From assembly GCA_943350875.1 (NCBI GenBank), contig CALRAL010000001.1:4829-68828 (forward strand): a stretch of 64,000 nucleotides of DNA, given 5' to 3'. The position numbers and the translations under genes are program-made. The notes beneath the pieces are model-generated. The model was given only the letters and a program-made list of their open reading frames with translations, searched no databases and was not told the origin of the DNA. This stretch comes from Candidatus Nomurabacteria bacterium. GTDB lineage: Bacteria; Patescibacteriota; Minisyncoccia; Phycocordibacterales; UBA9973. Positions 10,145 to 47,873 of this stretch are shown one piece after another. Position 1 is the stretch's first letter; each line of letters starts with the position of its first letter.

Positions 10145-10149
10145 ATTAT

Positions 10150-10990: not shown

Positions 10991-11026
10991 TCGCTATTTT
11001 TCAGAATAAATTAATGAGTTAGTACT

Positions 11027-11410: not shown

Positions 11411-11419
11411 AATCATTTT

Positions 11420-12348: not shown

Positions 12349-12441
12349 TCAAACGGGTGTATAATGTACTTGAATATGGTTACCTCCCTATGTTCGCTTT
12401 TTTTATGGAGGAATTTGAAAACACAATAAACAGATACGAAA

Positions 12442-22349: not shown

Positions 22350-22414
22350 CTCAGGTAGTTAGAGCGGGCGTTTCATAAGCGCCAGGTCCCAAGTGCAACT
22401 CTTGGTGCCGACAC
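22341..22414 (+). tRNA. tRNA-Met/Ile2 (anticodon CAT), elongator type (G1-C72)
   Basis: GTCGGCA-TA-GCTC-AGGTAGTTA-GAGC-G-GGCGT-TTCATAA-GCGCC-AGGTC-CCAAG-TGCAACT-CTTGG-TGCCGAC-A. Confidence 0.8.
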
Positions 22415-22889: not shown

Positions 22890-22965
22890 GCCGATGTAGC
22901 TCAGTTGGTAGAGCATCGCTTTCGTAAAGCGAGGGTCGACAGTTCAATCCTGTCCATCGGCTCCA
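22890..22965 (+). tRNA. tRNA-Thr (CGT) with encoded CCA
   Basis: GCCGATG-TA-GCTC-AGTTGGTA-GAGC-A-TCGCT-TTCGTAA-AGCGA-GGGTC-GACAG-TTCAATC-CTGTC-CATCGGC-T-CCA. The last ~5 nt coincide with the start of the recombinase-element inverted repeat. Confidence 0.85.
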
Positions 22966-24493
22966 AAACCCGACTTTTTTGTTGGGAACTCACAAAGGAG
23001 TGGGCGTCGCAAAGCGACGCCCATGCTGTTTGCATTTGTTTTGCGGGGGGATTCAGAAATTCTGGCGCGCTTGCGCGCACTAATTTGTTTTGGAGGAGGA
23101 GGTTCGAGCCAAAGATTTCTTTGGCACAGACCTTTTTGCAAAAAAGGTCTGTATCCAATGCAATTTTTTCCATATTCTGGGCTTTATTTATCCATTTTTG
23201 CATCGGTTCGAGCCACAATTTTTGTTTACCTTCCGAACGAGAAATTTCTGTCTCCAGCGACTTTTTCTCGGATAACAATTTTGATTTTTCAGAACGATAA
23301 ATTTCCTTTTCTATATCTTGGTCTAAATATCCGTCTAAAAGTCGCTGGAGCTTCACCACGATGTCTTGTATCTTCTTCTCGTTCTCCGAAACAAAAATTT
23401 GAACAGATTGGGCGGATTCCGTTTTGTCTTTTTCAAGTCTCATATTCAAATAATCCGCCCAATCTTGCGGCATAGAAACTTTTTGCAAGAGTGATGAAAT
23501 TTGTTCGTCCAACGACTCTTGGCGAATACAAGGTTCAGGACATTTCATATCTCGGCGTTTCTTGGTGCAACGATAGTAAGTGTAAAAATGTTGAGTTCCG
23601 TTAAGCTGTGTCTTCACCTTGTATTCGCCAGTGATCATCATTCCGCAAGTGGCACATGATAACAAACCACAATATGCTTGCGGTTCATTTTTCATTTTAT
23701 GTCGTGGACGACCTCTTTCTTTCATCACTTCTTGCACTTTGTCCCAAAGTCTCTTATCCACGATTGGCTCATGCTTGCCCTCATACACTTCTTTATTAAA
23801 TCTAAAATGTCCGTAATAAAATGGATTGGATAAAATGAAAGTGGCACGGGTTCGGTGGATTTTCTTTCCGTTTTTTGCAAAAAGATTATTCTGCGCCAAA
23901 AACATACCGATAGTGTCTAGTGTTTGATTTCCCTCTGAATACATCTCAAACGCCTTGAGAATAACAGGCGCGGACTTTTTATCAACTGCGATAGTTTTTG
24001 TTCGTGAATCGTTGATATAACCAACAGGAGTTAGTCCTGGATATTCTCCGCGCCTAACTTTTTGGCGCATCCCCCTTTTTGTATTTTCGGAAAGAGAATC
24101 CACATAATACTTACTTTGCCCAAACGCCATGTTGAGCATAAATTTTCCTTGTGAAGTGCTATCGCACCAAAATGTTGGAAATTTTAGCGTAGCAAGTTTC
24201 TCTGTGTCGAGGAGGTAAATTACTCGTCCACCATCAACGCTATTTCTTGCGAGACGATCCGGATGCCAAGCGAGAATGCTTCCGCCGAGTTTTTCAATCT
24301 CATCTAACATTTTATTAAATATCGGACGACCTGGAATTTTCGCAGATTGTTTTTCCACATACTCGGCGGAAATTTCAATCGCTTCTCGCTTGGCATAGTC
24401 TCGCAATTCGTCCAACTGTGCTTCAATAGACAAAACTTGTTTATCCTCGACATCAGTAGACTTGCGAGCGTACAAAAAGAATTTTTGTGACAT
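22901..24493 (-). CDS. Large serine recombinase (resolvase/invertase N-terminal domain plus recombinase domain plus Zn ribbon)
   Basis: N-terminus FLYARKSTDVEDKQVLSIEAQLDELRDY (catalytic Ser in YARKST); Zn-ribbon Cys pairs CGLLSCATCG...CTKKRRDMKC; 530 aa. The C-terminal ~60 aa read through the TIR and antisense across the tRNA, so the true stop is uncertain. Confidence 0.8.
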   Translation of the reverse strand: MSQKFFLYARKSTDVEDKQVLSIEAQLDELRDYAKREAIEISAEYVEKQSAKIPGRPIFNKMLDEIEKLGGSILAWHPDRLARNSVDGGRVIYLLDTEKLATLKFPTFWCDSTSQGKFMLNMAFGQSKYYVDSLSENTKRGMRQKVRRGEYPGLTPVGYINDSRTKTIAVDKKSAPVILKAFEMYSEGNQTLDTIGMFLAQNNLFAKNGKKIHRTRATFILSNPFYYGHFRFNKEVYEGKHEPIVDKRLWDKVQEVMKERGRPRHKMKNEPQAYCGLLSCATCGMMITGEYKVKTQLNGTQHFYTYYRCTKKRRDMKCPEPCIRQESLDEQISSLLQKVSMPQDWADYLNMRLEKDKTESAQSVQIFVSENEKKIQDIVVKLQRLLDGYLDQDIEKEIYRSEKSKLLSEKKSLETEISRSEGKQKLWLEPMQKWINKAQNMEKIALDTDLFCKKVCAKEIFGSNLLLQNKLVRASAPEFLNPPAKQMQTAWASLCDAHSFVSSQQKSRVLEPMDRIELSTLALRKRCSTN

Positions 24494-24811
24494 ATATTTT
24501 TTTGTTAAAGCAGAAATGACTATTCCAGTGTTGAAACCTTAACGCTAATTAAGATATCTGGAATAGTCATTTCTGCTAATTAGCTAATAACTGGTTTCAA
24601 CATTTCTAGTATAGCAAAAAATATTTGAGAACAAAAATTCTTTTTGAATAATTGCAAAAATTGCATTAGATTCCGAACCTCCTCCTCCAAAACAAATTAG
24701 TGCGCGCAAGCGCGCCAGAATTTCTGAATCCCCCCGCAAAACAAATGCAAACAGCATGGGCGTCGCTTTGCGACGCCCACTCCTTTGTGAGTTCCCAACA
24801 AAAAAGTCGGG
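22961..24811 (-). mobile_element. Serine-recombinase element 1: recombinase gene bounded by perfect ~140-bp terminal inverted repeats (22961-23102 / 24670-24811)
   Basis: The reverse complement of 24670-24811 is identical to 22961-23102 (CTCCAAAACCCGACTTTTTTGTTGGGAACTCACAAAGGAGTGGGCGTCGCAAAGCGACGCCCATGC...GGAGGAGGAGGTTCG). The outer end overlaps the 3' CCA end of tRNA-Thr(CGT). Confidence 0.75.
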
Positions 24812-25130
24812 TTTTGGAGTGTCTTTACGATTCCGCTCGAACTTACTTTATCAAAAATTCCTGAGAATATCCACAAGCGTTCCCCGCGCGCTAAAGCGCC
24901 ACCACGCGAAGCGTGGTGCTTCTGCTGAAGCAGAAGTGCGGGAAACGCTCTGCACCTCGCCACTAATGTTTTTCAAACGAGGCGAGGTGCAGAAATGCGG
25001 AACGCGAGCGAAATTTTGCGAAATGCTGGGGGTGTGGGGGAAAGTATTTCGCAAAAATTCGCTCGCGTACTTCCTGATTTTTTTTGGCAAATTAATTTTT
25101 TTGAATTTTTGCTCTCAGAGTTTTGAGCCT
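24812..25130. repeat. Inverted repeat C, left copy (~320 bp); partner at 28270-28602
   Basis: The reverse complement of 28270-28602 aligns along its full length with a few indels. The substitutions are compensatory within hairpins (CCACGCGAAGCGTGG vs CTGTGCGAAGCACAG; CTGCACCTCGCC...GGCGAGGTGCAG vs CTGCACTCCGCC...GGCGGAGTGCAG). Confidence 0.8.
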
Positions 25131-25355
25131 ACAATAAAAAAGTAAAATATGTTATAGTATATTTGCTGACAGATAAATATATTTAGAGCATTCATTGATG
25201 GTTTTTCCGTCAATCGCGTCCAATATTGGCATCCCAATATGAGGAAACACGATTGACGGTGAATGCCGTTTATCTGTCAGCACCTCTTTGTTGGGGTGCC
25301 TATTTTGTTTTTAGGTATCCAATACAAAGATTTTATAAATATAAATCTTAATAAA

Positions 25356-26189
25356 ATGGAAAACCTAGAGACACCCAAAAAAATTGAAACAAAATTTGAA
25401 AGATTAAAAAATTTTCTTGAAACACATAAAAATTCGATTGCAATGGTGTTTCATCGTCATGCCGAGCATACTAATGATAAAACTCAACCCGATGAATTTA
25501 GGAGATTGGCTATTGAAACTGATATAGATAAAACAATTGAGGCAGCAGGTTTAATTGATTTCGATTTAACAGTAGCATATTCTGTAAAAAGTTTACGTTC
25601 ATTTTTAACTGCTTATTATTTATTAAAACCAAATGATAGTATAAGTCTCGATCAAGAATCTCAAATTTTGCAATATGAAGCAATTCATTCTGGGCCAATG
25701 AAAAACAAAATACGTTCAAAAAAAGAACTAGATTATAAAGATCCAACAAAATTTAGTTTTTTTGAAGAATTAACAAAAGCTTTTAATGAAAACAAAATGT
25801 TGGAATTTTTAGTACATCATTCTGATGAATATGTTGCTAAGGGTGAAGATATTAGTGCTTACACTGTTGTGGCAAAAGATATAGCAAAAATTGCTCAAAC
25901 CTATATTAGATTTATTCCTAGGTGGAAAAATTTATCTACATCAAAATTTAACAATAAAAATCTATTTAGAACATTTTGTGCTAGAGAAATGGTATATGGA
26001 TGCTTTCGAGCGAAAATTACTGAGTTAGTTTCAGGAATTGAAGAGAGGGATTCGTTTGTTAAATATTATGATAAAAATTTAAGTCAAAAAGATATTGGGG
26101 TAATTATTATTAAAGATCAAGAAAATTTAGTTCTATTCGATGGTTTTGGACAATTAAGTTTTACAAGCTCAATTTTAGAAAAGATTTAA
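25356..26189 (+). CDS. Hypothetical protein (cargo gene 1)
   Basis: ORF 25263..26189; start trimmed to MENLETPKK downstream of the palindromic leader. No motif recognised. Confidence 0.4.
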   Translation: MENLETPKKIETKFERLKNFLETHKNSIAMVFHRHAEHTNDKTQPDEFRRLAIETDIDKTIEAAGLIDFDLTVAYSVKSLRSFLTAYYLLKPNDSISLDQESQILQYEAIHSGPMKNKIRSKKELDYKDPTKFSFFEELTKAFNENKMLEFLVHHSDEYVAKGEDISAYTVVAKDIAKIAQTYIRFIPRWKNLSTSKFNNKNLFRTFCAREMVYGCFRAKITELVSGIEERDSFVKYYDKNLSQKDIGVIIIKDQENLVLFDGFGQLSFTSSILEKI

Positions 26190-26199
26190 TTAGAAATTT

Positions 26200-27153
26200 A
26201 TGGCTTTACATAATTTAACATTGGGAATCCCTGTAAGAAATGAATCATTAAACTTAAAACAATTTATTAATTCTTTAAACATTTCTGTCGATTATTTACA
26301 AAATATCTACAAAGATATCAAGATTGAAATTATAGTTTGCATAAATGGCTCTACGGACAATTCAGAAAATATTATAAAAAATGAAATAATTGCCTCACAT
26401 TTAGACGTCCATCTAATTTTTAGCTCGGAGGGTAAATTAAATGCAATCGATGCTATTTTAAATTCTAAAAAATACAATGATCTAATTGGATTTATTGATG
26501 CAGATACTTTACTTGAGGTGTCGGCAATTTATGAATTGTATGCAGAAATTGTAGATAACAAAAATTTATTTGCAGTGTATTCAAATATGACCCCTAGGGG
26601 TAATGATAGTTTTATTTATAGAATACAGAAAAGCCATTATGATTCACGTTTCTCAAATACGAGAGGATATATTCACGGAAGATTTTACATTTTAAAAAAT
26701 GCTGATTTATTAAAAGTTGAAAGAATAAAAAGAAATAATAAAAAATGGATTTTAGAATACGGTCCGTTAGTTGATGATATATATCTTTCAAGGGTAATTG
26801 TAGCGACTTATGGAGTTGGCGCCATAAAAGAAGTTGAAAAATCAATTATTTATTTTAAACCACCGCAAAATCTAATAGATTTTTTCTTTGGTTATCGTAG
26901 AATTATTATTGAGCTCAAAAGATTATCTTTTTTATATCCCGAACATAATTTTATTCAGAAAAAATATTTTTCAAAAAATAGGTATGGGTTTAAAAAATAT
27001 AAAAATTATGAACAAAAATTTTTATATTTAATTTATCAAATAATTGTTCATTTCATTAAACTGATTGTCGGTTTGGAAATATTATTAATTAATTTTAAAA
27101 TTATAAAATTAAAACATGTCTGGAAAACAACACACTCAACAAAAGTTATTTAA
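26200..27153 (+). CDS. Family-2 glycosyltransferase
   Basis: LTLGIPVRNESLNLKQFINSL...IVCINGSTDNSENII...GFIDADTLLE (GT2 DxD motif). Confidence 0.6.
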   Translation: MALHNLTLGIPVRNESLNLKQFINSLNISVDYLQNIYKDIKIEIIVCINGSTDNSENIIKNEIIASHLDVHLIFSSEGKLNAIDAILNSKKYNDLIGFIDADTLLEVSAIYELYAEIVDNKNLFAVYSNMTPRGNDSFIYRIQKSHYDSRFSNTRGYIHGRFYILKNADLLKVERIKRNNKKWILEYGPLVDDIYLSRVIVATYGVGAIKEVEKSIIYFKPPQNLIDFFFGYRRIIIELKRLSFLYPEHNFIQKKYFSKNRYGFKKYKNYEQKFLYLIYQIIVHFIKLIVGLEILLINFKIIKLKHVWKTTHSTKVI

Positions 27154-27154
27154 T

Positions 27155-27733
27155 ATGGACAAATATTCCAAGTTAAATTTAGCATGTGGCCCAAAGGTAA
27201 AAAATAAATTTAAATTACCTTGGCTAAATGTTGATATCGATGGAAAAGCAGCTGATTTTATCTGTGATATAATGGTATTACAGAAAGAATGGAGTGGTAA
27301 ATTTGAAGAAGTTAGGGCTTCTCATGTATTAGAGCATATTTTTTTAGACGATGTGCCAAAAGTTTTATCCGAATGGATACGAGTATTAAAACCAAACGGC
27401 GTGTTAAGAATCATAGTTCCTGATCTTGATATTGTAATTGAGTCTTTAAACAGTGGTATTGATCAGAAAAAAAGGAAATCTTTATCGGTCGATACTACTA
27501 CCCCGATTTTATCTCAAATTTATGGATGGGGTTATTGGACAAAAAATACAAAAAAGGAATGGAGACACAGAATGATATATAATGAGAAACTTATTATTAA
27601 GATTTTGAAAAATCAGAAAAAATTAAAAAATATAAAAACCTACAAACAAGATCAAGATCCAGCATTTATATTCAAAATAAAAGATGATTCACAAAATATT
27701 TTTTCTTTATGTGTCCAAGCTCAAAAAAAGTAA
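27155..27733 (+). CDS. SAM-dependent methyltransferase (class I)
   Basis: LNLACGPKV...LNVDIDGKAADFICD...LKPNGVLRIIVPD resembles methyltransf_11/23-type motifs I, II and post-II. Confidence 0.5.
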   Translation: MDKYSKLNLACGPKVKNKFKLPWLNVDIDGKAADFICDIMVLQKEWSGKFEEVRASHVLEHIFLDDVPKVLSEWIRVLKPNGVLRIIVPDLDIVIESLNSGIDQKKRKSLSVDTTTPILSQIYGWGYWTKNTKKEWRHRMIYNEKLIIKILKNQKKLKNIKTYKQDQDPAFIFKIKDDSQNIFSLCVQAQKK

Positions 27734-27775
27734 AGTCGATTATATTTATTAGTATTAATAGTTTAAAATAAAATT

Positions 27776-28261
27776 ATGGAACAACCAATGGATAATAAAA
27801 TGAGTAGCAAAATAGAATCAACTAATTTAAAAATTGAATTTGTAAATTTAACTTTAGGAATTGAACCCTCTAATATTGAGACTTCCCACATAAGTGCCAT
27901 ATTTCTAGTTGGCATAAAAGACGGGATGATACTCGCTGCAAGAAATGAAAGAGGGTGGGATATCCCAGGAGGTCACGTAGATGCTGATGATACAGATTTG
28001 TATTCTGCATTAGTACGAGAAGTAGATGAAGAATCAGGTGTAACACTCAAAAAAGCTAAGCCTTTTGCTATCATGAGATTTGATGGAAAAGATAAATCAA
28101 TGCTGTTTTATGTATCCGATGCTTTTGAATTAGAAGAGTTTATACCAAAGGAAGATGCGTTTGAAAGACAAATGATGCCCATTCCAGAATTTATAGAAAA
28201 ATATAATTGGAAGAAAAACGTAATTCAACCAATAATTGAATATGCTATTCAAAATAAATAA
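27776..28261 (+). CDS. Nudix hydrolase
   Basis: Nudix box GGHVDADDTDLYSALVREVDEESGV (Gx5Ex7REVxEExG). Confidence 0.75.
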   Translation: MEQPMDNKMSSKIESTNLKIEFVNLTLGIEPSNIETSHISAIFLVGIKDGMILAARNERGWDIPGGHVDADDTDLYSALVREVDEESGVTLKKAKPFAIMRFDGKDKSMLFYVSDAFELEEFIPKEDAFERQMMPIPEFIEKYNWKKNVIQPIIEYAIQNK

Positions 28262-28269
28262 GAATTTAA

Positions 28270-28602
28270 ATTAAAGTATTTACTCCTCTCAAAACTCTGA
28301 GAGCAAAAATTCAAAAAAATTAATTTGCCAAAAAAAATCAAGAAGCACGCGAAGCGAATTTTGCGAAATACTTTCCCCCAAACCCCCAGCATTTCGCAAA
28401 ATTTCGCTCGCGTTCCGCATTTCTGCACTCCGCCTCCTTTGCCCCCAAAACATTGTGGCGGAGTGCAGAGCATTCTCCCGCACTTCTGCTTCAGCAGAAG
28501 CTCTGTGCTTCGCACAGAGGCGCTTCAGCGCGCGGGGAACGCTTGTGGATATTCTCACGAATTTTTGATAAAGTAAGTTCGAGCGGAATCGTAAAGACAC
28601 TC
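28270..28602. repeat. Inverted repeat C, right copy; ends exactly at the prfB ATG
   Basis: See 24812-25130; ...CGTAAAGACACTC|ATG. Confidence 0.8.
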
Positions 28603-29484: not shown

Positions 29485-29503
29485 TTGTGATACAATTAGT
29501 AGT

Positions 29504-30286: not shown

Positions 30287-30294
30287 ATTTTTAT

Positions 30295-31521: not shown

Positions 31522-31566
31522 AAAATCTTTTGTTTTACTAATCTGCAATTATGCTATAATTGATAG

Positions 31567-35555: not shown

Positions 35556-35760
35556 AAGACAAAATGTTGATAAAAAAGACGTGCTGTGTCTCTTGAATAA
35601 AATCCGAACTTTTTTCCAAAACAATCCGGATGCTGACTAATACCGACCAGCGCCTCGCAAAGCCTCGGCGCTCCGCCCTCGCCCCATTCCGCCTTTCATT
35701 CTAATTTTTTTCGCGGGGGGATTCTTTTTGAAATTGTATGGGCGGAAACGGGGCTCGGTC
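35556..35760. repeat. Inverted repeat D, left copy (~200 bp, GC-rich); partner at 43195-43382
   Basis: The reverse complement of 43195-43382 is essentially identical (TGCTGTGTCTCTTGAATAAAATCCGAAC...CGCCTCGCAAAGCCTCGGCG...CGCGGGGGGATTC...GGCTCGGTCGGGC). Confidence 0.8.
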
Positions 35761-36207
35761 GGGCTTCTTCTAAGGAAGAAGCGGTCGGTAAATACGTGGT
35801 GTCTCGGACATTATACTATTTTTGATCGTCCGTGACCAAAGGAGTCCATCCTCGGCATTCGCCTCGGACATTTCCGCTAGGGCTACTCGCGCCTAGATGT
35901 CTAGGTTTGGCGCGTTTCCTCGCTCTACGGCACTGTGGTGCCGGAGCTCGGGCGCCAGCAGTTTGGGGGAAGGAAGGAATCCTTCCCCCAGCTTCGCCTC
36001 GTCTCGGCAGGGCTCGACCAACCGGCTCAGCCAACCCCCATCCTCGTTTTCATATCCGAGTATTTCTCAAGATTTTAGATTATCCTTTGTTTATATCGTC
36101 GGCGCTCATCCTTTAGCCACGGACGCCCGTCGCGGAAATGTCCGAGGCTCAAATTCGTATTGCACACTTGACCCACCCTCCCGTTCGCGTGTGCGCAAAA
36201 CCCCGCT
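35761..36207. ncRNA. GC-rich ~450-bp non-coding island with many nested hairpins; candidate structured RNA of unknown class
   Basis: Much more GC-rich than surrounding CDSs (as are the rRNA and tRNAs here). Long-range inverted pair CGCCTCGGACATTTCCGC (35858) / GCGGAAATGTCCGAGG (36128); perfect 9-bp stem GGGGGAAGG-AAGGAAT-CCTTCCCCC; a TTGGTC-N18-TATAAT-like promoter on the minus strand near 35800-35830. The ORFs here are Arg/Pro/Ala-rich and look spurious. Confidence 0.4.
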
Positions 36208-36240
36208 CGCAAGGACGAGAGGCGTGCGAGCGGGGCTCCC
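36208..36240 (-). terminator. Rho-independent terminator for the minus-strand operon (11-bp stem CCCCGCTCGCA...TGCGAGCGGGG, then a T-tract on the minus strand)
   Basis: Seen directly after the stop of the nuclease gene. Confidence 0.65.
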
Positions 36241-36990
36241 TTAATTTTCTAAAACTTTTCTTGCGTTCCAGTATGCACACCAATCACAATGCTCACCAGA
36301 TTTTGGTATCACATCACTTTCTAAACATTTTTTAATTTCAAACAAAGTTTTTTCAACCCAAGAATCATCGCCTTTGTGTTCAATCAAATTGACATCAAAA
36401 TCAATTCGTTTATCAAATGCTTGTCTATCCATTTTTCCAGTGCAATATACAAAATAACCAATATCAGAGACCTTTAGCCCATTCTGCCTCAAAAGCCACT
36501 GATACACCTCCATTTGGCGTTTATAGCCATCTTGCCACTCTTTATCCAGCGCTTTAACAGCTTCATCCTTTGCAGTGGCTTTATAATCCACGACAATATA
36601 CTCGTCTTTTCCGTTGATCCACAAATCATCAATCGCACCAGTTACCAAAAGTCCAGTCGGCTCATGCAAATATCTAATACCACCAAAATTTCTTCGCCAT
36701 TCATCAAGCTCTTTGTGAGACATTGGTCGTGCGTCAATTCCATATTCTTTTTGTAGTGGGTGCTGTTCGTTTTTTGTACGGTATGAATCAAATTCTTGTT
36801 TAAGAAGATAATCAACCGCACTATTGATAGAAAACGGAAATCCGGGTACTCGTTTTACACCAAGTTTGTTATCAATGTAAAAACATCGTGGACACTCTTT
36901 AAACAAATCAATTTTAGAACGAGAAAGTTTCCAGTTCTTTCCGCCATAATTCCACCCATCACCTCTATTTGCTTTATAGTATTCAGACAT
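36241..36990 (-). CDS. Cas4/RecB-like PD-(D/E)xK nuclease with four Cys (CxxC...CxxC), putative Fe-S cluster
   Basis: N-terminal CPRC, core GAIDDLWING...DEYIVVDYKATAK (D...E-x-x-x-D-Y-K), C-terminal HCDWC. Confidence 0.65.
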   Translation of the reverse strand: MSEYYKANRGDGWNYGGKNWKLSRSKIDLFKECPRCFYIDNKLGVKRVPGFPFSINSAVDYLLKQEFDSYRTKNEQHPLQKEYGIDARPMSHKELDEWRRNFGGIRYLHEPTGLLVTGAIDDLWINGKDEYIVVDYKATAKDEAVKALDKEWQDGYKRQMEVYQWLLRQNGLKVSDIGYFVYCTGKMDRQAFDKRIDFDVNLIEHKGDDSWVEKTLFEIKKCLESDVIPKSGEHCDWCAYWNARKVLEN

Positions 36991-36999
36991 AAAATTTTG

Positions 37000-38502
37000 T
37001 TAATTATAATATGAGTCAAACACTTGCACCTCCTTTTTGCTAATAAGAGTCTTCGTTTTGCCGATTTTTGCCTTATCAATATATGACCTATCCTCGATTG
37101 ATTTTTTAATCACTGCATCATCAATCCAATCTGTAACAAAGATATTTTGCGCTTCACCATCTACGGCTTTACACAATTTCTCATTAAGCGATAGTTTAAA
37201 TTTCAAACCAATCGACATTCTCTGTATCCAAATTTCAATTAGTCCAGTATTTGAAAGATTACAAATCTTATTCTGAATTTTTAGAAGTAGTTCTTTTTTA
37301 GATTTTATTGTTAGTTTTGATATACAACTCGATACTAAACCAGCGATCACGGGAAAAGCGTTTGGATTGTTATAAGCAATATCAATAAGCAAACTTGTTA
37401 TCAGTTTTTGTTGATTATAAAAATCTTTGTCATTAACCGCATCGAGAATTTTAGACAGTCTATTTTTAAGAGTTCCTGAATTTGGATGCCACTTTCCAAT
37501 TTGTTGGACAATCATTAACTGCCGGAGTAATTCTTTTTTTGATAATTTTTTAGGAACGGCTTCAAATTTAAGAGCCTCTATCTTGTCGGGTTTTATTGAG
37601 CCTGTAACAACATCGTCGCAAGAATATGTTTTATTAGTATTTAGACGGAAACCGAATCCTATCAGTGTTTCGCTTAGACATTTTAGAATTATATCTCCAT
37701 CCATTGTATCATTCGTGAAAATTCTATAATCATCTCGATACCGAAGTATGTGAAATTTTTTATCTTTCAACGTAGTATTAAGTTTGTTTGATAATTCAGT
37801 ATCAGCATAACCTAGGACTATCTCTGCTATAAAATCCATCAAAATACTTCCTTGTGGTATTCCATTAGTTTGACCATAAGACATTGCTTGAACATGGTGA
37901 TCAATTTTATTTCCAAATAAGTCTGCATATTTTTGCTTTTTCTTTGATTCTTCTTTTGTATGAATAGCCCAAGGTATTGAGTGCGTATAAATAGAGCCAT
38001 AACAATCAGTAATATCAGTCTGATATAAAAACTTATATTCCAAAGCTAGAGTTACAGATTTCTTTTCTACATTATTAACCCATTGCGAAATTTGAGATGC
38101 TCTTTGTTTAGATTTATATCTTGGCAATACAGGAATACTTTCGCATTCGATATTTTTATCACCTTGAAATTCTTTAAATCTATCTTGTAAAGATTTCCAG
38201 TTATCTTTCTGTGTGATTACATTTACTAGAGAAACATACAACAACGGGTTTATAATTTCATATTTTCTCCAAGCATATTTTCCATCCTTATTACCATATA
38301 AGATATGATTAACTGTTTCGTATTTTTTCGCTTTTTTAAGATCGTCAAATGTGAGTTCTTTATCTTTAAAATTCTTTGTAATAACAGAAAGTAATTTACT
38401 AAATGAAAAATAGGGTGGCAATTCTATATTAGAAAAGGATTCTTGGTTTATAAAGAATTTTTTTGCATCTGTTGGGTTTAAATTTAAGACATTTTTTGAC
38501 AT
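37000..38502 (-). CDS. Reverse transcriptase of the Abi/UG (defence-associated) type with an alpha-helical C-terminal extension
   Basis: RT motifs QTDITDCYGSIYTHSI (motif 2), NGIPQGSILMDFIAEIVL (motif 4, PQG), HILRYRDDYRIF (YxDD variant), LIGFGFRLNTNKT (motifs 6/7). About 180 aa N-terminal and ~200 aa helical C-terminal regions, with no maturase/En domains. Confidence 0.7.
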   Translation of the reverse strand: MSKNVLNLNPTDAKKFFINQESFSNIELPPYFSFSKLLSVITKNFKDKELTFDDLKKAKKYETVNHILYGNKDGKYAWRKYEIINPLLYVSLVNVITQKDNWKSLQDRFKEFQGDKNIECESIPVLPRYKSKQRASQISQWVNNVEKKSVTLALEYKFLYQTDITDCYGSIYTHSIPWAIHTKEESKKKQKYADLFGNKIDHHVQAMSYGQTNGIPQGSILMDFIAEIVLGYADTELSNKLNTTLKDKKFHILRYRDDYRIFTNDTMDGDIILKCLSETLIGFGFRLNTNKTYSCDDVVTGSIKPDKIEALKFEAVPKKLSKKELLRQLMIVQQIGKWHPNSGTLKNRLSKILDAVNDKDFYNQQKLITSLLIDIAYNNPNAFPVIAGLVSSCISKLTIKSKKELLLKIQNKICNLSNTGLIEIWIQRMSIGLKFKLSLNEKLCKAVDGEAQNIFVTDWIDDAVIKKSIEDRSYIDKAKIGKTKTLISKKEVQVFDSYYN

Positions 38503-38527
38503 ATTCTTTAGTAAACATGGAACGGAA

Positions 38528-40435
38528 CTATCTCCATAAATCTAAAATCGTATTCCTAAGCAAAACATCCTCTTTATTTAGATTGTTTCTTAATTTCTCT
38601 ACTTCATCGTACTTTTTCACTATTTTTATTTGTTCTGAAATTGATGGTAGTGGAATATATATTTTTTCCAATAAATCAGGCGGTGTTAGATATTTTCTAT
38701 TTGTTGATCCAGATGAAGCATTTGCCACTATAGACTCAAAGTCGCCTGATGAAATCACAAGATTAAGAAATTTTGGCAAGATTAAGTCAGTGTTTAATTT
38801 TGCGGTAGCCATGTTCGAAGTCACAACACAATCAGAATAATCTTTAGTTATTAATCCGAATCCACCAGATTTTGTATCAACCTTACACCAGAACAAAGAA
38901 TCATTTTTAACCGGTCTATATTTTAGAGTTTTCTTTAATTCTTTTCCCTTTACAACTTTAGAAATAAAACATCCTTTACCATGCGACCGCACTCCAAGAA
39001 CTTTATATTCCTTTTCATCGACAAGTGATATGGGTTTCTCATTATAAAATGATAGTACTTTTGATAATTTTACAAAATCATCATTTTCAGCATTATGATT
39101 TTTCAAGTATTCATTAGCTAACAGCTTTGATTGTTTACTTAGTAAAATACTTTCTTTTTTAACTATATGAAATACTAAATTGGTTTTGTGTGCTAGTTTA
39201 TAACTTCCTAAAATTGATTTCTTGATTTCATCTAGCAATTCTACACATAATGGTAAATCATTTTTTTCAAATTCTTTTCTTTGTAACCCCAAATCATAGC
39301 CGTCATTTTGAATATCGATAAAATACACAGAATCACTCTTTTTTGAAATCTCTTTATCAAAAAAGAGTATATTTGTTTTGTTGTCTGCGTAAGGATTAAA
39401 AACTCCTGAGGGAAGTGAGATTACAGCCCACAACCAATTATCTTTAACCAATTTTGTTCTAAGAGATCTAAAAGAGCTTTGGGTGTTAAATACTACTCCT
39501 TCAGGAACGATTACTCCGCCTCTACCGTTAATCCCTAAATGTTCTAACATATAATCAACAAAAAGAACTTCCGCTTTATTTGCTTGAACAGAAAATCTTT
39601 TGTGTGGCTTGATTCCGCCTGTTGGTGTCATAAAGGGAGGATTTGCCATTATTACATCGTACATTTCGTCCCACTTCTCATCGCTTGAAAGTGTGTCGTA
39701 TTCAAAAATTTTAGGCTCGGCGAAACCATGCAAATACATATTTACTTTTGAAAGTTTTACCATGTCAGGAGAAATATCATAGCCGACTAAATTATTCATC
39801 AATTTTTCTTTTTCGTCGGGGGTAAGTGGCTTGTCTTTTTGTTGTTTGAGAATATGTTTGTATGCAGAAATTAAAAATCCAGCCGTACCGCAAGCAGGAT
39901 CTAAAATTTTATCTCCTTTCTTTGGGTCTACTACCTCGGCTATAAAATCAATAATGTGGCGTGGTGTGCGAAATTGTCCTGCATCGCCTTGAGAGCCGAG
40001 AATAGAGAGTAAATATTCAAAAGCATTTCCTAAATCTTCGCTGTGGTCATAAGTAAAACCGTTAATTTCTTTCAAAAACAAAGTTAAAGTTTCGGGACTT
40101 CGGTATGGAAGAAAGGCATCTTTGAAAATATCTCGGAATAATTGTGGGATGTGTGGATTTTGAGACATTTTAGCAACGGCTTCGCCATAAAGCTCTAAAC
40201 GCTCATGTCCACCGAGTTTTTGGTCAAGTAATTTCGTCCACGCATATTTTTCAAAACCTTTTGTGAAAAATCTTGCTTTTCCGCCAAGTTCAATCGCTTC
40301 TTTATCCATATCGTCCATAAACTTGTAAATCAAAGCCGTTGTGATTTGTTCAACTTGGGCTTTTGGGTCGGGGACTTTGCCGACAAGAATATTGCGGGCA
40401 GAGTCAATTTTTCGTTTTGTTTCTTGAGTAAGCAT
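38528..40435 (-). CDS. N6-adenine DNA methyltransferase fused to a single target-recognition domain (M-S fusion)
   Basis: Motif I ILDPACGTAGFLIS; motif IV MANPPF; C-terminal TRD ending in the HsdS-type conserved block IYIPLPSISEQIKIVKKYDEVEKL. Confidence 0.8.
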   Translation of the reverse strand: MLTQETKRKIDSARNILVGKVPDPKAQVEQITTALIYKFMDDMDKEAIELGGKARFFTKGFEKYAWTKLLDQKLGGHERLELYGEAVAKMSQNPHIPQLFRDIFKDAFLPYRSPETLTLFLKEINGFTYDHSEDLGNAFEYLLSILGSQGDAGQFRTPRHIIDFIAEVVDPKKGDKILDPACGTAGFLISAYKHILKQQKDKPLTPDEKEKLMNNLVGYDISPDMVKLSKVNMYLHGFAEPKIFEYDTLSSDEKWDEMYDVIMANPPFMTPTGGIKPHKRFSVQANKAEVLFVDYMLEHLGINGRGGVIVPEGVVFNTQSSFRSLRTKLVKDNWLWAVISLPSGVFNPYADNKTNILFFDKEISKKSDSVYFIDIQNDGYDLGLQRKEFEKNDLPLCVELLDEIKKSILGSYKLAHKTNLVFHIVKKESILLSKQSKLLANEYLKNHNAENDDFVKLSKVLSFYNEKPISLVDEKEYKVLGVRSHGKGCFISKVVKGKELKKTLKYRPVKNDSLFWCKVDTKSGGFGLITKDYSDCVVTSNMATAKLNTDLILPKFLNLVISSGDFESIVANASSGSTNRKYLTPPDLLEKIYIPLPSISEQIKIVKKYDEVEKLRNNLNKEDVLLRNTILDLWR

Positions 40436-40438
40436 AAT

Positions 40439-42925
40439 TTACATATAAGTATTTACGGACACATAATCTTTGACATATTCCGGTATCACTTCACGAAAGC
40501 CGTTTAGCTCTTTGAAATCTCCCATTGATACTTTTGGATTTGTAGCAAAACGACCATATTCTTTTGATTCCACAATCTCACGAATTTCATTGTCGGTTAT
40601 GTATGCCTTTAGGAAATTTTTGATTGGATAGTAATATTTGCTATCGGGTTTGTAGATAGAGATAAACTTTTCAAATTCTTCTTCCAAAAGCTCATCTTTA
40701 TTTTTGAATTTATCAAGGCGACCAAAAATTTTGTCTATGACTTCTCGTAGGGAAATGCGACGATCAACTTTTGCTGATTTTCGGAGTTTTTCAAGGTTGT
40801 AAAATTCCTGCGGTTTATCGAAAATCTCCGTTTTTACATATTCCTCAACGGCTTGCATATCGCCCTGTTCATATTTCTCTTTGATAAATGAATCAGCTTT
40901 GATTGTGTCCTCAAATTTCTCAAAGAGTTTCCTATCAACTTTCATTCCCTCAACGCCTACGGCTTTTTCGTTGAAAGTTTTAAGTGGGTCAGGAGTTCCA
41001 ATAATTATTTCGTCAATATCAACTCCTCCGCCACCTGTACCACCAGTTCCAATTTTTGGTATTTTTAGAATCTCGTCATAGTTAAACTTTTCCTCAAAAT
41101 ATTCGCAGTTTGCAAAGAAATCAAAAAGCTTGAATTTGTCTTTTTCGGTATTATTTTTGTCGCCATCGTTTTCAAACGAAAAAACATATTTTCTTGTACC
41201 ACGCCCTTTGATCTGAATGAAATCTGTCGGCGAGAAAATCGGGCGCATAAGTCCGAGGTTTAATATATTTTGGCAGTCATAGCCAGTAGTCATCATCCCG
41301 ACAGTTACGCAAACTCTCGTTTTACTTGATTTATACCCATCGAGCCATTTTGTATGTCCGTTGAGATTATCATTTGAAAAATTGATTGTGAATTGCTGGG
41401 CGTCGCTGATATTTGAAGTAACTTGAACGGCAAAATCGGAATTGTATTTATTCGGGTAGTGCTTATCAGCTAATTGGTTAAGTATTTGCGTAATTTTTGT
41501 CGCATGGTTTTGACTAACGCAATAAATAATACTTTTACCAATTTCTCCACTCACTGGATCAACAAGAGCATTTTTGAGAAAAGTTTCGCAAAAAATCGTG
41601 TTTGTCTTATCCGAGAAAAATTTCCTTTCAAAATCCTTTTGGTAAAAAGTTTGTTCCTCTTTTCCTTCCTCCGTATCAACAAGCAGAGAATATCCCTCAT
41701 CAGATAAAAGCTGTGTTGTTATTTCTGTTCGAGCGTCAGCAACGATAGGATTTACCAAAAATCCCTCTTTCACACCATCTAACAAGCTGTAACGGAAAGT
41801 TGGCTCACCGTTTTCGCAACCAAAAGTAGTGTATGTATCAAGAAGTTGCCGACGCTCCCAAGCTCGCGGGTCTTTTTCGCCTAATTTTACAGGGTCAATG
41901 CCTTTGAGATAATTTTTCGGTGTTGCTGTAAGTCCCAGTTTATACCCAACAAAGTATTCAAAAACCGCTCTGCTATTTCCGCCGATTGATCGGTGCGCTT
42001 CGTCTGAAATAATAAGGTCAAAATCTGTCGGAGAGAAAAGTTTTTGATATTTATCAGAAATGCTTTGAATCGTGGTAACGACAATTTCTGCCTTTCGCCA
42101 ATCATCACGATTTTCTTTATATATCACAGTCGTATAATCTTTTGAAAGCCACTTTTTGAAATTTTTTGCCGCCTGATCTTCAAGCTCTATGCGGTCTACT
42201 AAAAACAATACTCTTTTCGCGTTTCCTGTTTTAAGAAATAATTTTATAACGGCGGCACAAGTAAGGGTTTTACCTGTTCCAGTCGCCATTTCAAAAAGAT
42301 AACGATCTTTTCCACTACTAGCCCAGCCCTGTAATGCCTCAATCGCTTTCAACTGGTACGGACGCAGAAATTTTAGGTCGTATTCTTTTACAAGTTCAGA
42401 TTTCTTGTCGTCGTTCCATCGTGGGTCTTTTTGATAACTAGGATTTTGTGTTAGTGCGATATAATCGGCAGTCAATTTTTCGTCCGCAAGTTTTTTCGGG
42501 TCTGGTTTGAATGCTTCAAAATGCTTCAGAGATTCCTGTGTTGGGAAAACTGTAATTATTTGTGGATTACCTCGCTCCAAATCCCAAAAATAATGTATAT
42601 TGCCATTTGAAAGAATTATAAAACGAACATTGAGCGATTGAGCATATCGACGAGCCTGTTCTTTTCCGTTCAGAGGGTCTTTCTCTTCTGATTTCGCCTC
42701 CAAAACTAAATACGGGAAACCTTTTTCGTCGAGCAAGAGAAAATCGACAAAGCCATCTTTCGTTTTATCAAAATCATTACCAAGCTCATCAACGGCATTT
42801 TTTGTCAGCTTCACATTGTTTTCTAGAGCAATGTTTGCTGTGCCTTTTTCATCGTCAAAAAATCTCCAGTTGGATTCTTGAAGTAAATTATTGATTTTGA
42901 TTCTGGCTTTGGCTTCTTTTTGCAT
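40439..42925 (-). CDS. Restriction subunit: N-terminal Mrr/PD-(D/E)xK nuclease plus SF2 helicase-like ATPase (HsdR / Type ISP-like)
   Basis: VDFLLLDEKGFPYLVLEAKSEEK nuclease motif; Walker A MATGTGKT; DEAH-box LIISDEAHRS; 828 aa. Confidence 0.8.
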   Translation of the reverse strand: MQKEAKARIKINNLLQESNWRFFDDEKGTANIALENNVKLTKNAVDELGNDFDKTKDGFVDFLLLDEKGFPYLVLEAKSEEKDPLNGKEQARRYAQSLNVRFIILSNGNIHYFWDLERGNPQIITVFPTQESLKHFEAFKPDPKKLADEKLTADYIALTQNPSYQKDPRWNDDKKSELVKEYDLKFLRPYQLKAIEALQGWASSGKDRYLFEMATGTGKTLTCAAVIKLFLKTGNAKRVLFLVDRIELEDQAAKNFKKWLSKDYTTVIYKENRDDWRKAEIVVTTIQSISDKYQKLFSPTDFDLIISDEAHRSIGGNSRAVFEYFVGYKLGLTATPKNYLKGIDPVKLGEKDPRAWERRQLLDTYTTFGCENGEPTFRYSLLDGVKEGFLVNPIVADARTEITTQLLSDEGYSLLVDTEEGKEEQTFYQKDFERKFFSDKTNTIFCETFLKNALVDPVSGEIGKSIIYCVSQNHATKITQILNQLADKHYPNKYNSDFAVQVTSNISDAQQFTINFSNDNLNGHTKWLDGYKSSKTRVCVTVGMMTTGYDCQNILNLGLMRPIFSPTDFIQIKGRGTRKYVFSFENDGDKNNTEKDKFKLFDFFANCEYFEEKFNYDEILKIPKIGTGGTGGGGVDIDEIIIGTPDPLKTFNEKAVGVEGMKVDRKLFEKFEDTIKADSFIKEKYEQGDMQAVEEYVKTEIFDKPQEFYNLEKLRKSAKVDRRISLREVIDKIFGRLDKFKNKDELLEEEFEKFISIYKPDSKYYYPIKNFLKAYITDNEIREIVESKEYGRFATNPKVSMGDFKELNGFREVIPEYVKDYVSVNTYM

Positions 42926-42931
42926 AAAAAT

Positions 42932-43219
42932 TTATTTCAAAAGTTCGCTACTGGAAATCCCCAACGCATTAGCAATCTTTTCCAAGGTGGAAAGAGTGGG
43001 GTTCATACGACCATTCTCAATATTGCTAATATATGCTCTATCCACACTCAAAGCGGTCGCAAGGTCTCCTTGCGACATATTCTTTTTCAGACGCCATTTT
43101 CTAAGGTTTTCACCTAATTTCTTGCCAGATGACATATTTTGTATTTTATTCTCACTTGCATCATATTGCAATCGTGTAATATAATGCACATAGCCCGACC
43201 GAGCCCCGTTTCCGCCCAT
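42932..43219 (-). CDS. XRE-family HTH transcriptional regulator (putative controller of the defence operon)
   Basis: LRKWRLKKNMSQGDLATALSVDRAYISNIENGRMNPTLSTLEKIANALGISSSEL. Confidence 0.75.
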   Translation of the reverse strand: MGGNGARSGYVHYITRLQYDASENKIQNMSSGKKLGENLRKWRLKKNMSQGDLATALSVDRAYISNIENGRMNPTLSTLEKIANALGISSSELLK

Positions 43220-43382
43220 ACAATTTCAAAAAGAATCCCCCCGCGAAAAAAATTAGAATGAAAGGCGGAATGGGGCGAGGGCGGAGCGCCGAGGCTTTGC
43301 GAGGCGCTGGTCGGTATTAGTCAGCATCCGGATTGTTTTGGAAAAAAGTTCGGATTTTATTCAAGAGACACAGCCCTGAATG
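43195..43382. repeat. Inverted repeat D, right copy
   Basis: See 35556-35760; abuts the recombinase-element inverted repeat at 43371. Confidence 0.8.
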
Positions 43383-45135: not shown

Positions 45136-45192
45136 AATATAATGATAGAATAATACAATAATAGTTTTTAATCAAATAGTTTTAAATTCATT

Positions 45193-47872: not shown

Positions 47873-47873
47873 G

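What the first reader, a model, noticed from the sequence alone, without database searches (positions are those of the whole stretch)
22961..24811. Serine-recombinase gene inside perfect 140-bp terminal inverted repeats that start within the CCA end of tRNA-Thr
The 530-aa large serine recombinase gene is bracketed by two 140-bp segments that are exact reverse complements of each other (22961-23102 and 24670-24811). Each carries a GGGCGTCGCAAAGCGACGCCC hairpin and a CGGGGGGATTC motif. The left repeat begins with the last nucleotides (CTCCA) of tRNA-Thr(CGT), so the element reconstitutes the tRNA 3' end. The recombinase ORF itself reads through the repeat and antisense across the tRNA. IS607-type serine transposases lack terminal inverted repeats. 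Tn4451-like elements have different ends. A compact unit of about 1.85 kb with long perfect repeats and a large serine recombinase does not match the element families known to me.
Basis: partly seen in the sequence, partly recalled or inferred. Interest (0 to 1): 0.7.

Follow-up and report, generated by a model that had tools for sequence, protein, structure and literature searches.

The report
tRNA-inserted recombinase island with inverted attP
The recombinase gene between perfect inverted repeats is real, but it is only the recombinase module of a 5.6-kb gene-carrying island inserted at the end of a tRNA gene; the island belongs to a widespread family in ultra-small (Patescibacteria) bacteria that I could not find described, and it keeps a complete spare copy of its own insertion site, turned round, inside itself.

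Summary
The arms are 22961-23106 and 24674-24819: 146 nt, 100% complementary, starting in the CTCCA end of tRNA-Thr(CGT).

The interpretation as a compact 1.85-kb transposon with terminal repeats is not supported. A second inverted-repeat pair (24817-25127 / 28288-28602, about 92%) abuts the right arm and encloses 3.1 kb of cargo. It ends at the prfB start codon. The window holds a second island with the same layout at tRNA-Gln (35583-45068).

The three junctions read tRNA|A, C'|A (inverted) and C'|flank, with a shared 3-4-nt core. In recombinase terms these are attL, a complete internal attP, and attR.

About 160 related loci from Patescibacteria genomes and metagenomes show the same architecture at more than 12 different tRNAs. 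A conserved GGTTCGA motif lies 4 nt farther from the core in the element arm than in the tRNA. This fits the spacing difference between attP and attB published for large serine recombinases.

One empty-versus-occupied comparison exists between the two tRNA-Thr genes. Both modules are found inverted in other genomes. In three loci the recombinase module has a tRNA on both sides.

The role of the internal attP is inferred, not shown. No description was found in eight literature searches. I rate it a new variant of a known kind.

The parts
22890..22965 (+). tRNA-Thr(CGT), the target gene. Its T-arm and acceptor 3' strand act as the host-side (B) half-site of attL.
   Evidence: ARAGORN; Rfam; junction comparison.
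22961..23106 (.). IR1 left arm (A). It is the element-side P' arm of attL and encodes the last ~48 codons of the recombinase ORF. The core CTC is at 22961-22963.
   Evidence: Arms within a locus have median 99.3% identity, against 55% between loci.
23001..23023 (-). Conserved 10-bp-stem hairpin, terminator-like in the recombinase-sense direction. Its twin lies at 24757-24779 (+).
   Evidence: Covariation over 35 loci: 96.9% of cells paired, 8 of 10 pairs with compensatory changes.
22901..24493 (-). Large serine recombinase LSR1 (530-aa ORF). It has no stop codon inside the element: it reads across the att core and stops in antisense tRNA.
   Evidence: Pfam; A118 integrase match; open frame in nearly all of 33 loci translated (two frames broken).
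23107..23152 (-). 45-46-nt double-palindrome insert in the recombinase coding sequence (TDLFCKKVCAKEIFG). It is absent from the other arm. Arm homology resumes at 23153-23167, matching about 24657-24673.
   Evidence: (I5).
24494..24673 (-). Recombinase upstream region. It holds a conserved CAAAAAGAATTTTTG palindrome and a perfect 20-bp hairpin (24509-24528 / 24558-24577).
   Evidence: (I9).
24674..24819 (.). IR1 right arm (A'), the reverse complement of A. It is the P' arm of the internal attP.
24780..24860 (-). J2, a complete attP in inverted orientation. On the - strand it reads P arm ...GATAAAGTAAGTTCGAGCGGAATCGTAAAGACA | CTC | CAAAACCCGAC... The core lies at 24817-24819.
   Evidence: The GGTTCGA motif offset matches PMC3783163.
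24817..25127 (.). IR2 near arm (C), in two blocks: 24817-24943 and 24974-25127. It is GC-rich and full of hairpins.
   Evidence: I3, I5.
25128..28287 (+). Cargo segment G, low in GC. It holds an unknown 308-aa ORF (25263-26189), a GT2 glycosyltransferase (26200-27153), a methyltransferase (27116-27733) and a NUDIX hydrolase (27776-28261).
28288..28602 (.). IR2 far arm (C'), the P arm of attR. The core CTC is at 28600-28602 and the prfB ATG follows at 28603.
35583..45068 (.). Second island of the same build, mirrored. IR2 arms are 35583-35765 / 43192-43374 (183 nt, 100%). Cargo 35766-43191 holds an AbiP2-type reverse transcriptase, a Cas4-like nuclease, type I R-M and a C-protein. IR1 arms are 43371-43503 / 44936-45068 (133 nt, 100%). 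LSR2 is at 43587-45125 (+). The target is tRNA-Gln(CTG) at 45063-45137 (-).

Best explanation
The 1.85-kb unit is the recombinase module (R) of a 5.6-kb integrative island spanning 22961-28602. The island sits at the 3' end of tRNA-Thr(CGT).

Shown directly by the sequence comparisons: the island reads attL (tRNA|A), then the recombinase gene, then a complete attP in inverted orientation (A'|C), then cargo (G), then attR (C'|flank). All three junctions share a 3-nt core, CTC, made of the last acceptor base, the discriminator base and the first C of CCA. The element supplies the remaining CA. The 146-nt 'terminal repeats' are therefore two copies of the P' arm of the attachment region, which also contains the last ~48 codons of the recombinase. 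The abutting ~310-nt repeats are two copies of the P arm.

Inferred:
1. The recombinase recognises the universal tRNA T-loop motif GGTTCGA as the zinc-ribbon-domain motif of the host half-site. It recognises the same motif, 4 nt farther from the core, in the element's P arm. It exchanges strands at a dinucleotide within the core. This would explain how close relatives use many different tRNAs.
2. The free form would be a circle of two unique segments, R and G, separated by an inverted pair of attP-bearing repeats. This is the geometry of the yeast 2-micron plasmid. Integration through one attP leaves the other intact.
3. R and G can each invert, by homologous recombination between arms or by the recombinase. 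Gene conversion keeps the arms alike.
4. The retained attP is a conserved, functional part rather than a relic. It can react with a second tRNA site. In the majority subtype its P arm also carries an outward promoter that points into the recombinase gene.
5. The conserved hairpins in the arms act as outward terminators that insulate the module.
For: Junction logic:
- tRNA|A, C'|A and C'+core|flank hold in both window islands and in 11 of the 13 other loci tabulated; two were cut by a gap or contig end.
- The outer flank of the arm on the recombinase 5' side is a conserved P arm. The outer flank of the 3' arm is a tRNA 3' end, overlapping by 3-8 nt (mostly 5). This holds in about 77 of about 85 resolvable loci and at more than 12 tRNA species.

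Recombinase identity:
- Resolvase, Recombinase and Zn_ribbon_recom domains.
- Homology to A118 integrase.

Half-site spacing: GGTTCGA lies 23-24 nt from the core in the P arm and 19-20 nt in the tRNA. PMC3783163 reports the zinc-ribbon-domain motif shifted 5 bp toward the centre in attB relative to attP.

Insertion polymorphism:
- In L073 the order is tRNA-Thr(ggt) | 8.8-kb island | 33 nt | tRNA-Thr(cgt). L074 has the same far-arm-to-tRNA-Thr(cgt) junction (26 nt), though its target tRNA is off the contig.
- In the window and L016 the same two tRNAs are 6-12 nt apart.
- L084 keeps an orphan P arm 6 nt upstream of tRNA-Thr(cgt).
- Relatives without the recombinase have tRNA-Thr ending GGCTC|A.

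Inversion and attP activity:
- R is flipped in L058 and L009.
- Homologous cargo is inverted between L005 and L073.
- The recombinase module has a tRNA on both sides in L020, L026 and L152.

Maintenance and architecture:
- Arms within a locus have median 99.3% identity, against 55% between loci.
- The architecture persists even where the arms come from different lineages, at about 70% identity (L033, L042, L160).
- Independent assemblies reproduce the arrangement.
- Cargo is varied accessory and defence genes, with no phage or plasmid modules.
Against: - No excised circle was seen. No locus has P arms on both sides of the recombinase module (0 of about 85).
- No directionality factor is identifiable.
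- If both attP copies of a circle were used equally, the two orientations should be about equal. Observed is about 77 standard against 2 flipped.
- The host-side B' half-site shows no conservation. This is unusual for large serine recombinases.
- For this particular island no clean empty site exists. In relatives (prfB about 80% identical) tRNA-Thr(cgt) and prfB are separated by 1.3-5.8 kb of other genes. The right junction at the prfB ATG may therefore reflect a secondary rearrangement.
- Canonical large serine recombinases do not recombine attL with attP. Any recombinase-driven inversion would be atypical.
- All functional statements about the internal attP, the hairpins and the promoter are inferences from sequence.
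Confidence: 0.72

Rival explanations
1. It is a Hin-like on/off switch. The recombinase exists mainly to flip its own segment and the cargo segment between the inverted sites. This would give phase-variable expression of the recombinase, the cargo or the downstream host gene. Mobility would be secondary.
For: - The sites are in inverted orientation and bracket both segments.
- Both segments occur in either orientation in other genomes.
- The arms stay near-identical.
- The ORF remains intact in either orientation because the repeat begins inside the coding sequence.
Against: - Orientation is nearly fixed: about 77 against 2.
- Three assemblies of this strain show a single orientation.
- Inversion changes none of the three junction sequences.
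- The protein is a 530-aa integrase-type recombinase, not a ~190-aa invertase.
- The insertion polymorphism and the varied cargo show an integrative element.
Confidence: 0.15
2. The repeats matter at the RNA level only. They provide outward terminators and allow read-through transcripts to fold into a long panhandle. This would insulate the recombinase and cargo from outside transcription. The inverted attP would then be a by-product.
For: - A strongly covarying hairpin is present in both arms and is terminator-like in the outward direction.
- U:G pairs at the stem base occur only on the recombinase-sense strand.
- Terminator-like hairpins lie between the P-arm promoter and the recombinase in L075.
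Against: - The duplicated stretch always ends exactly at the recombination core and always includes the full P and P' half-sites.
- Loci whose arms have diverged to about 70% still keep a complete inverted attP.
- Loci with a tRNA on both sides imply DNA exchange at J2.
Confidence: 0.08
3. This is the first reader's reading: an autonomous 1.85-kb serine-recombinase transposon bounded by 146-bp terminal inverted repeats.
For: Perfect inverted repeats flank a single recombinase gene. Many public contigs of 1.7-2.1 kb hold only this unit.
Against: - The right 'terminus' continues without a break into the second repeat and the cargo.
- There is no target duplication.
- The unit is never seen at a non-tRNA site, nor seen clearly without a P arm or a second tRNA on its 5' side.
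- The short contigs are what assembly breakage at a repeat longer than the k-mer would produce (inference).
- Inverted serine-recombinase sites cannot give excision (established mechanism).
Confidence: 0.03
4. It is an assembly or amplification artefact: a chimeric inverted duplication.
For: Perfect inverted repeats are a known artefact class in metagenome assemblies (own knowledge).
Against: - The same arrangement appears in independent assemblies of this strain.
- The same architecture appears in about 120 further loci, whose contig names point to several different assemblers.
- Many of those loci have arms only 79-99% identical, which an assembler cannot invent.
- The second repeat in this island is 92% identical with indels.
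Confidence: 0.01

Closest known systems
Large serine recombinase (serine integrase) integrative elements, such as phage A118, Bxb1, phiC31 and SPbeta
   Same: - Same three-domain recombinase.
- Short core identity between the sites.
- Hybrid attL and attR junctions.
- The recognition motif lies 4-5 bp farther from the centre in attP than in attB (PMC3783163).
   Different: - The target is the 3' end of many different tRNA genes, whereas the serine integrases named above use one specific site each (own knowledge).
- The host-side B' half-site is not conserved.
- A complete attP is kept, inverted, inside the integrated element.
- The recombinase ORF has no stop codon of its own and crosses the core.
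- No directionality factor and no phage genes are present.
Yeast 2-micron plasmid (FLP/FRT); also the inverted-repeat isomerisation of plastid genomes
   Same: Two unique segments are separated by a pair of long inverted repeats. The recombinase target lies inside each repeat, and the recombinase gene lies in one unique segment.
   Different: - FLP is a tyrosine recombinase.
- 2-micron is an autonomous replicon that uses inversion for copy amplification.
- Here there are no replication genes, the element is integrated, and the circular form is only inferred.
Hin/Gin/Cin invertible segments
   Same: A serine recombinase gene lies inside (Hin) or next to a segment bounded by inverted sites. In phage P1 the sites sit at the outer ends of 0.6-kb repeats (own knowledge).
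   Different: - Those are small invertases that need Fis and an enhancer, with 26-34-bp sites.
- They are not integrative and not linked to tRNAs.
- Here orientation is almost fixed across genomes.
Tycheposons of Prochlorococcus (bioRxiv 10.1101/2020.12.28.424599)
   Same: Small cargo-carrying integrative elements at tRNA 3' ends in streamlined genomes, with defence or niche genes as cargo. A minority encode large serine recombinases.
   Different: Most (910 of 937 elements counted there) use tyrosine recombinases, and many carry replication modules. By my own recollection, not checked in the text, they are flanked by direct partial-tRNA repeats. The one mention of inverted repeats found in the text is a reference title.
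IS607-family and Tn4451/Tn5397 serine transposases
   Same: A serine recombinase is the only mobility gene, and the core is very short.
   Different: Those lack long inverted repeats, do not target tRNA ends, and leave no internal attachment site.

Membership tests
Large serine recombinase (protein family) | N-terminal resolvase catalytic domain, recombinase domain, and zinc-ribbon domain with a coiled-coil insert | tested here: met
   PF00239, PF07508 and PF13408 all score above their cut-offs for LSR1 and LSR2. A118 integrase matches at E = 4e-9.
Serine-integrase integrative element | Hybrid junctions: attL = host|element and attR = element|host, sharing a short core with attP | tested here: met
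   Three-junction comparison in both window islands and 11 other loci.
Serine-integrase integrative element | Occupied versus empty target in related genomes | tested here: inconclusive
   Met for family members at tRNA-Thr(ggt): L073, L074 and L084 are occupied, while the window and L016 are empty. For this island itself no clean empty site was found, because relatives carry other genes between the tRNA and prfB.
Serine-integrase integrative element | attP and attB half-sites carry the same recognition motif, about 5 bp closer to the centre in attB | tested here: met
   GGTTCGA lies 19-20 nt from the core in the tRNA and 23-24 nt in the P arm. The published rule is in PMC3783163.
Serine-integrase integrative element | Excised circular form and a directionality factor | tested here: not met
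   No locus has P arms on both sides of the recombinase module. Nothing was found in viral contigs. No conserved small gene lies beside the recombinase. Absence from assemblies is weak evidence.
DNA transposon / IS with terminal inverted repeats | The inverted repeats are the ends of the mobile unit and are flanked by a target-site duplication | tested here: not met
   The right arm is fused to further element DNA. The junctions share only the recombination core.
DNA transposon / IS with terminal inverted repeats | Identical copies at several unrelated sites in one genome | tested here: not met
   The two units in the window are 47% identical in protein and have different arms. All copies lie at tRNA ends.
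Hin/Gin-type invertase system | Small (~190-aa) invertase with a C-terminal HTH domain, and short 26-34-bp sites | tested here: not met
   The proteins are 530 and 512 aa with an integrase-type architecture.
Hin/Gin-type invertase system | Both orientations coexist in a population | not testable with these tools
   No reads are available. Three assemblies show one orientation.
2-micron-like isomerising circle | Autonomous replicon with recombinase-driven inversion between repeats | tested here: not met
   No replication genes occur in the cargo of 20 other loci or the two window islands. The likeness is in geometry only.

The most novel reading that the evidence does not exclude
These islands may be a distinct class of mobile element with two special properties.

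First, the integrase may read the universal tRNA T-loop plus a 3-5-nt core. It could then be retargeted to any tRNA simply by changing the core.

Second, the element deliberately keeps a live attP inside the integrated copy. That spare site would let an element with no directionality factor go on acting after insertion. It could drive its own recombinase from the junction promoter, exchange modules between islands, and recombine with other tRNA sites. Such recombination would cause the chromosomal inversions that scramble gene order in Patescibacteria.

The stop-less recombinase ORF ending at a terminator hairpin could add control through non-stop mRNA.
Probability: 0.25. Interest if true: 0.85.

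Novelty: new variant of a known kind. Interest (0 to 1): 0.66.

Why it matters
- **Gene flux in tiny genomes.** Patescibacteria have very small genomes and few recognised mobile elements. This family is very abundant: the first search hit its ceiling of about 8000 scored candidates, nearly all significant. This 64-kb window alone holds two copies. The family carries defence systems, diversity-generating retroelements, aminoacyl-tRNA synthetases and surface-modification genes. It is therefore a plausible major route of gene flux in these organisms.
- **An unusual integrase target.** As a matter of mechanism, this would be a serine integrase whose host site is essentially one half-site, the tRNA T-arm and acceptor end, plus a 3-nt core. 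Relatives 75-78% identical to LSR1 sit at Leu, Lys, Gly and Tyr tRNAs, and LSR1 itself at Thr. That suggests easy retargeting, which is of interest for genome-engineering integrases.
- **Genome rearrangement.** The retained inverted attP is an unusual design. If it is active, it would link these islands to rearrangements between tRNA genes.
- **A practical point for assembly.** The repeats systematically break short-read assemblies of these genomes.

Tried and rejected
- **Chance or artefact.** Rejected on the independent assemblies and on the imperfect arms seen elsewhere.
- **Known RNA family in the repeats.** Rfam found only the tRNAs.
- **Phage origin.** No relatives were found in viral contigs, and no phage genes occur in the cargo.
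- **Clean empty site for island 1.** I looked for one through prfB homologues. Gene order upstream of prfB is not conserved, although tRNA-Thr(cgt) always lies upstream.
- **Flipped isomer of this strain.** I tried a look-up of the protein predicted after inversion.
- **Free circular form.** I looked for loci with P arms on both sides of the recombinase module and found none.
- **Clustering of arm differences near the core.** A first count suggested clustering, but it came from how I anchored the alignment. With the tRNA end as anchor the differences are spread evenly.
- **A strict link between recombinase clade and tRNA identity.** Rejected. Recombinases 75-78% identical to LSR1 sit at Leu, Lys, Gly and Tyr tRNAs.
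- **cUUCGg tetraloop reading of the hairpin.** Rejected, because the palindrome register gives a 3-nt loop.
- **Outward promoter in the P arm.** It is predicted in the majority subtype (L075) but not in this window's Thr-type arm. It is therefore not claimed for this island.
- **Literature.** Eight full-text searches found no description of this architecture.
Full report
**1. The observation**

The window has a perfect 146-nt inverted repeat with arms 22961-23106 and 24674-24819. The left arm starts with the last five bases (CTCCA) of tRNA-Thr(CGT), which lies at 22890-22965. Between the arms lies one gene on the minus strand, a 530-aa ORF at 22901-24493. It carries Resolvase, Recombinase and Zn_ribbon_recom domains, and its nearest solved relative is A118 integrase. 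It is therefore a large serine recombinase, here called LSR1. The ORF stays open through the whole left arm and ends 60 nt inside the tRNA, antisense. Two independent ENA assemblies match the window with the same arrangement; one spans the whole island.

**2.

- The right arm is not followed by host DNA. Overlapping it by 3 nt is a second inverted-repeat pair, 24817-25127 and 28288-28602. It is about 92% identical, in two blocks.
- This second pair encloses 3.1 kb of low-GC cargo: an unknown ORF, a GT2 glycosyltransferase, a methyltransferase and a NUDIX hydrolase. It ends exactly at the ATG of prfB.
- The window holds a second locus with the same build, mirrored. From the tRNA inward it comprises:
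  - the target, tRNA-Gln(CTG) at 45063-45137(-);
  - a 133-nt perfect repeat (43371-43503 / 44936-45068) around a second recombinase, LSR2, which is 47% identical to LSR1;
  - an abutting 183-nt perfect repeat (35583-35765 / 43192-43374) around 7.4 kb of cargo.
- That cargo holds an AbiP2-type reverse transcriptase, a Cas4-like nuclease, a type I restriction-modification system and a C-protein.

**3. Junction logic**

Call the first repeat A/A' and the second C/C'. The three junctions, all written in the same orientation, are as follows.

| Junction | Reads as | Sequence |
|---|---|---|
| J1 | tRNA \| A | catcgg CTC CAAAACCCG |
| J2 (reverse complement) | C' \| A | aaagaca CTC CAAAACCCG |
| J3 | C' \| flank | aaagaca CTC atggaaaaag |

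J2 shares its right half with J1 and its left half with J3. This is the relation of attP to attL and attR, with a 3-nt common core. The second island gives the same pattern with core CAGC. So do 11 of the 13 other loci tabulated, where both repeat pairs are readable; their cores are CTC, CAC or GCAC. The core covers the last acceptor base, the discriminator base and the first C of CCA. The element supplies the rest of CCA. The integrated island is therefore attL, R, inverted attP, G, attR.

**4. A family, not a one-off**

- LSR1 has thousands of homologues, and every one that carries a source name is from Patescibacteria.
- I fetched 80 loci from species-representative genomes and 80 from metagenomes.
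- Self-comparison and tRNA scans were run on all of them. About 77 of about 85 loci with enough flank have the standard layout: a conserved P arm outside the arm on the recombinase 5' side, and a tRNA 3' end overlapping the other arm by 3-8 nt (usually 5).
- More than 12 tRNA species are used.
- Recombinases 75-78% identical to LSR1 sit at Leu, Lys, Gly and Tyr tRNAs. Target choice therefore does not need much protein change.
- Loci without a detectable repeat are almost all cut by contig ends. L033, L042 and L160 keep the full layout, but their arms come from different lineages and are about 70% identical.
- Many public contigs are only 1.7-2.1 kb long. I attribute this to assembly breakage at the repeats.

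**5. Site anatomy**

The P arm ends in ...GGTTCGAGC...(core). The same GGTTCGA motif is the tRNA T-loop. It lies 23-24 nt from the core in the P arm and 19-20 nt in the tRNA, in both subtypes. For A118-type integrases the zinc-ribbon-domain motif lies 5 bp nearer the centre in attB than in attP (PMC3783163). The match in direction and size supports reading the tRNA as the attB half-site and C'|A as attP. The other host half-site, the flank after the tRNA, shows no conservation. This is unusual.

**6. Evidence of insertion**

- The tRNA cluster Met-Asp-Thr(ggt)-Thr(cgt) is uninterrupted in the window (6-nt spacer) and in L016 (12 nt).
- In L073 an 8.8-kb island lies exactly between the two tRNA-Thr genes. 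L074 shows the same far-arm junction before tRNA-Thr(cgt), but its target tRNA is beyond the contig end.
- L084 keeps only a P arm, 6 nt before tRNA-Thr(cgt).
- Relatives that lack the recombinase have tRNA-Thr(cgt) ending GGCTC|A, as predicted for the empty core.
- For the window's own island no clean empty site was found. In five related loci tRNA-Thr(cgt) lies upstream of prfB on the same strand. It is separated from prfB by 1.3-5.8 kb of other genes, often diaminopimelate-pathway genes. The right junction at the prfB ATG may therefore follow a later rearrangement.

**7. Dynamics**

- The recombinase module is flipped in L058 and L009.
- Homologous cargo is inverted relative to the recombinase between L005 and L073.
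- In L020, L026 and L152 the module has a tRNA on both sides. This is what recombination of the internal attP with a second tRNA site would leave. Other routes are possible.
- Arms within a locus are far more alike (median 99.3%) than the same arm between loci (median 55%; for the window the nearest other locus is 76%). The differences are spread evenly along the arm. This points to gene conversion.
- No locus has P arms on both sides of the module, so no free circle was seen.

**8. Other conserved features**

- The repeat always begins at the codons FG|SNLLL. In nearly all of 33 loci translated (two frames were broken) the ORF stays open through the arm and across the core. It stops only in the flanking DNA.
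- The arm hairpin has a 10-bp stem with 96.9% of cells paired. Eight of its ten pairs show compensatory changes, and U:G pairs occur only on the recombinase-sense strand. It is terminator-like pointing outward in both arms.
- A 45-46-nt double palindrome lies in the coding sequence just inside the arm and is missing from the other arm. Beyond it the homology resumes for about 15 nt.
- In the majority subtype the P arm is a near-consensus promoter, TTGAAA-16-TACAAT with an upstream TG, pointing outward. At J2 it points toward the recombinase, and at J3 toward the host gene. This is not predicted for the window's Thr-type arm.

**9. Interpretation**

The most likely reading is a tRNA-targeting serine-integrase island whose attachment region is duplicated in inverted orientation. 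Its free form would then be a two-segment circle with 2-micron-like geometry, and one attP would survive integration. I take the retained attP to be functional, because it is kept even when the arms differ. What it is used for is not shown. Candidates are promoter delivery, module exchange, or reaction with other tRNA sites. The strong orientation bias argues against frequent free flipping, or else for selection against the flipped state. In the flipped state the recombinase would lie downstream of the tRNA promoter.

Rivals:
- A Hin-like switch. This is possible in part.
- RNA-level insulation only.
- A terminal-repeat transposon. Rejected.
- An assembly artefact. Rejected.

**10. Novelty**

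Eight full-text searches found no description of this layout. The nearest analogues are ordinary serine-integrase elements (same chemistry), tycheposons (same ecology) and the 2-micron plasmid (same geometry). I rate it a new variant of a known kind.

Noticed in passing
window 35583-45137: A second island of the same architecture lies at tRNA-Gln. Its repeats are perfect (183 nt and 133 nt) and it carries a defence cargo: an AbiP2-type reverse transcriptase, a Cas4-like nuclease, type I R-M (R, and an M-S fusion) and a C-protein.
   Followed up: yes
window 35766-36240: A GC-rich (about 45%) stretch with no convincing ORF lies just inside the far arm of island 2, next to the Cas4-like nuclease and the AbiP2 reverse transcriptase. 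It could be a non-coding RNA partner of the reverse transcriptase.
   Followed up: no
window 24509-24577: A perfect 20-bp-stem hairpin with a 29-nt loop sits just upstream of the LSR1 start codon. Loci with a recombinase upstream region of about 180 nt (instead of about 60-80 nt) may carry a comparable insert.
   Followed up: partly
window 23107-23152, and the same position in all related loci: Codons TDLFCKKVCAKEIFG of the recombinase are encoded by two adjacent perfect palindromes, whose stems appear to covary between loci. A related palindrome, CAAAAAGAATTTTTG, is conserved in the recombinase promoter region.
   Followed up: partly
L138 about 11280-11330: In this deletion variant the P arm is joined directly to the recombinase coding sequence through the shared GGTTCGAGCC motif. 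The motif that marks the inner end of the repeat is thus the same as the tRNA/P-arm motif.
   Followed up: partly
L084 5552-5593: An orphan P arm (an attR remnant) lies 6 nt upstream of tRNA-Thr(cgt) in a genome with no recombinase within 5.6 kb.
   Followed up: partly
L083-L087 compared with window 22965-28602: The interval between tRNA-Thr(cgt) and prfB is a variable hotspot in related genomes. It holds a full diaminopimelate/lysine gene set in L083, fragments of it in L086 and L087, and two small ORFs in L084 and L085.
   Followed up: partly
window 29462-31700 (L081 genes 10902-12919): A Tsp45I-like restriction enzyme and an N6/N4 methyltransferase lie directly after prfB and are absent from relatives, where prfB is followed by ftsE. 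This is another accessory insertion.
   Followed up: no
window 10105-10146, 10943-11006 and 11744-11796: Three copies of the GC-rich palindrome CCCCTCTCCTTGATAAGGAGAGGGG are spaced about 800-850 nt apart.
   Followed up: no
window 47870-47906, 61059-61102, 61773-61808 and 62476-62517: Four copies of a hairpin, AAAATATCAAGGACTACCCTTGATATTTT, occur in both orientations. Three of them are about 700 nt apart.
   Followed up: no
cargo of L005, L034, L073 and others: Island cargo includes parts of diversity-generating retroelements (RVT_1, bAvd, Lcl_C), aminoacyl-tRNA synthetases of classes I and II, peptidase S51, toxin-antitoxin genes and an aminoglycoside nucleotidyltransferase.
   Followed up: partly
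window 21615-22349: A 244-aa ORF with a faint HTH_23 match ends inside tRNA-Met (22340-22414), at the head of the tRNA cluster.
   Followed up: no
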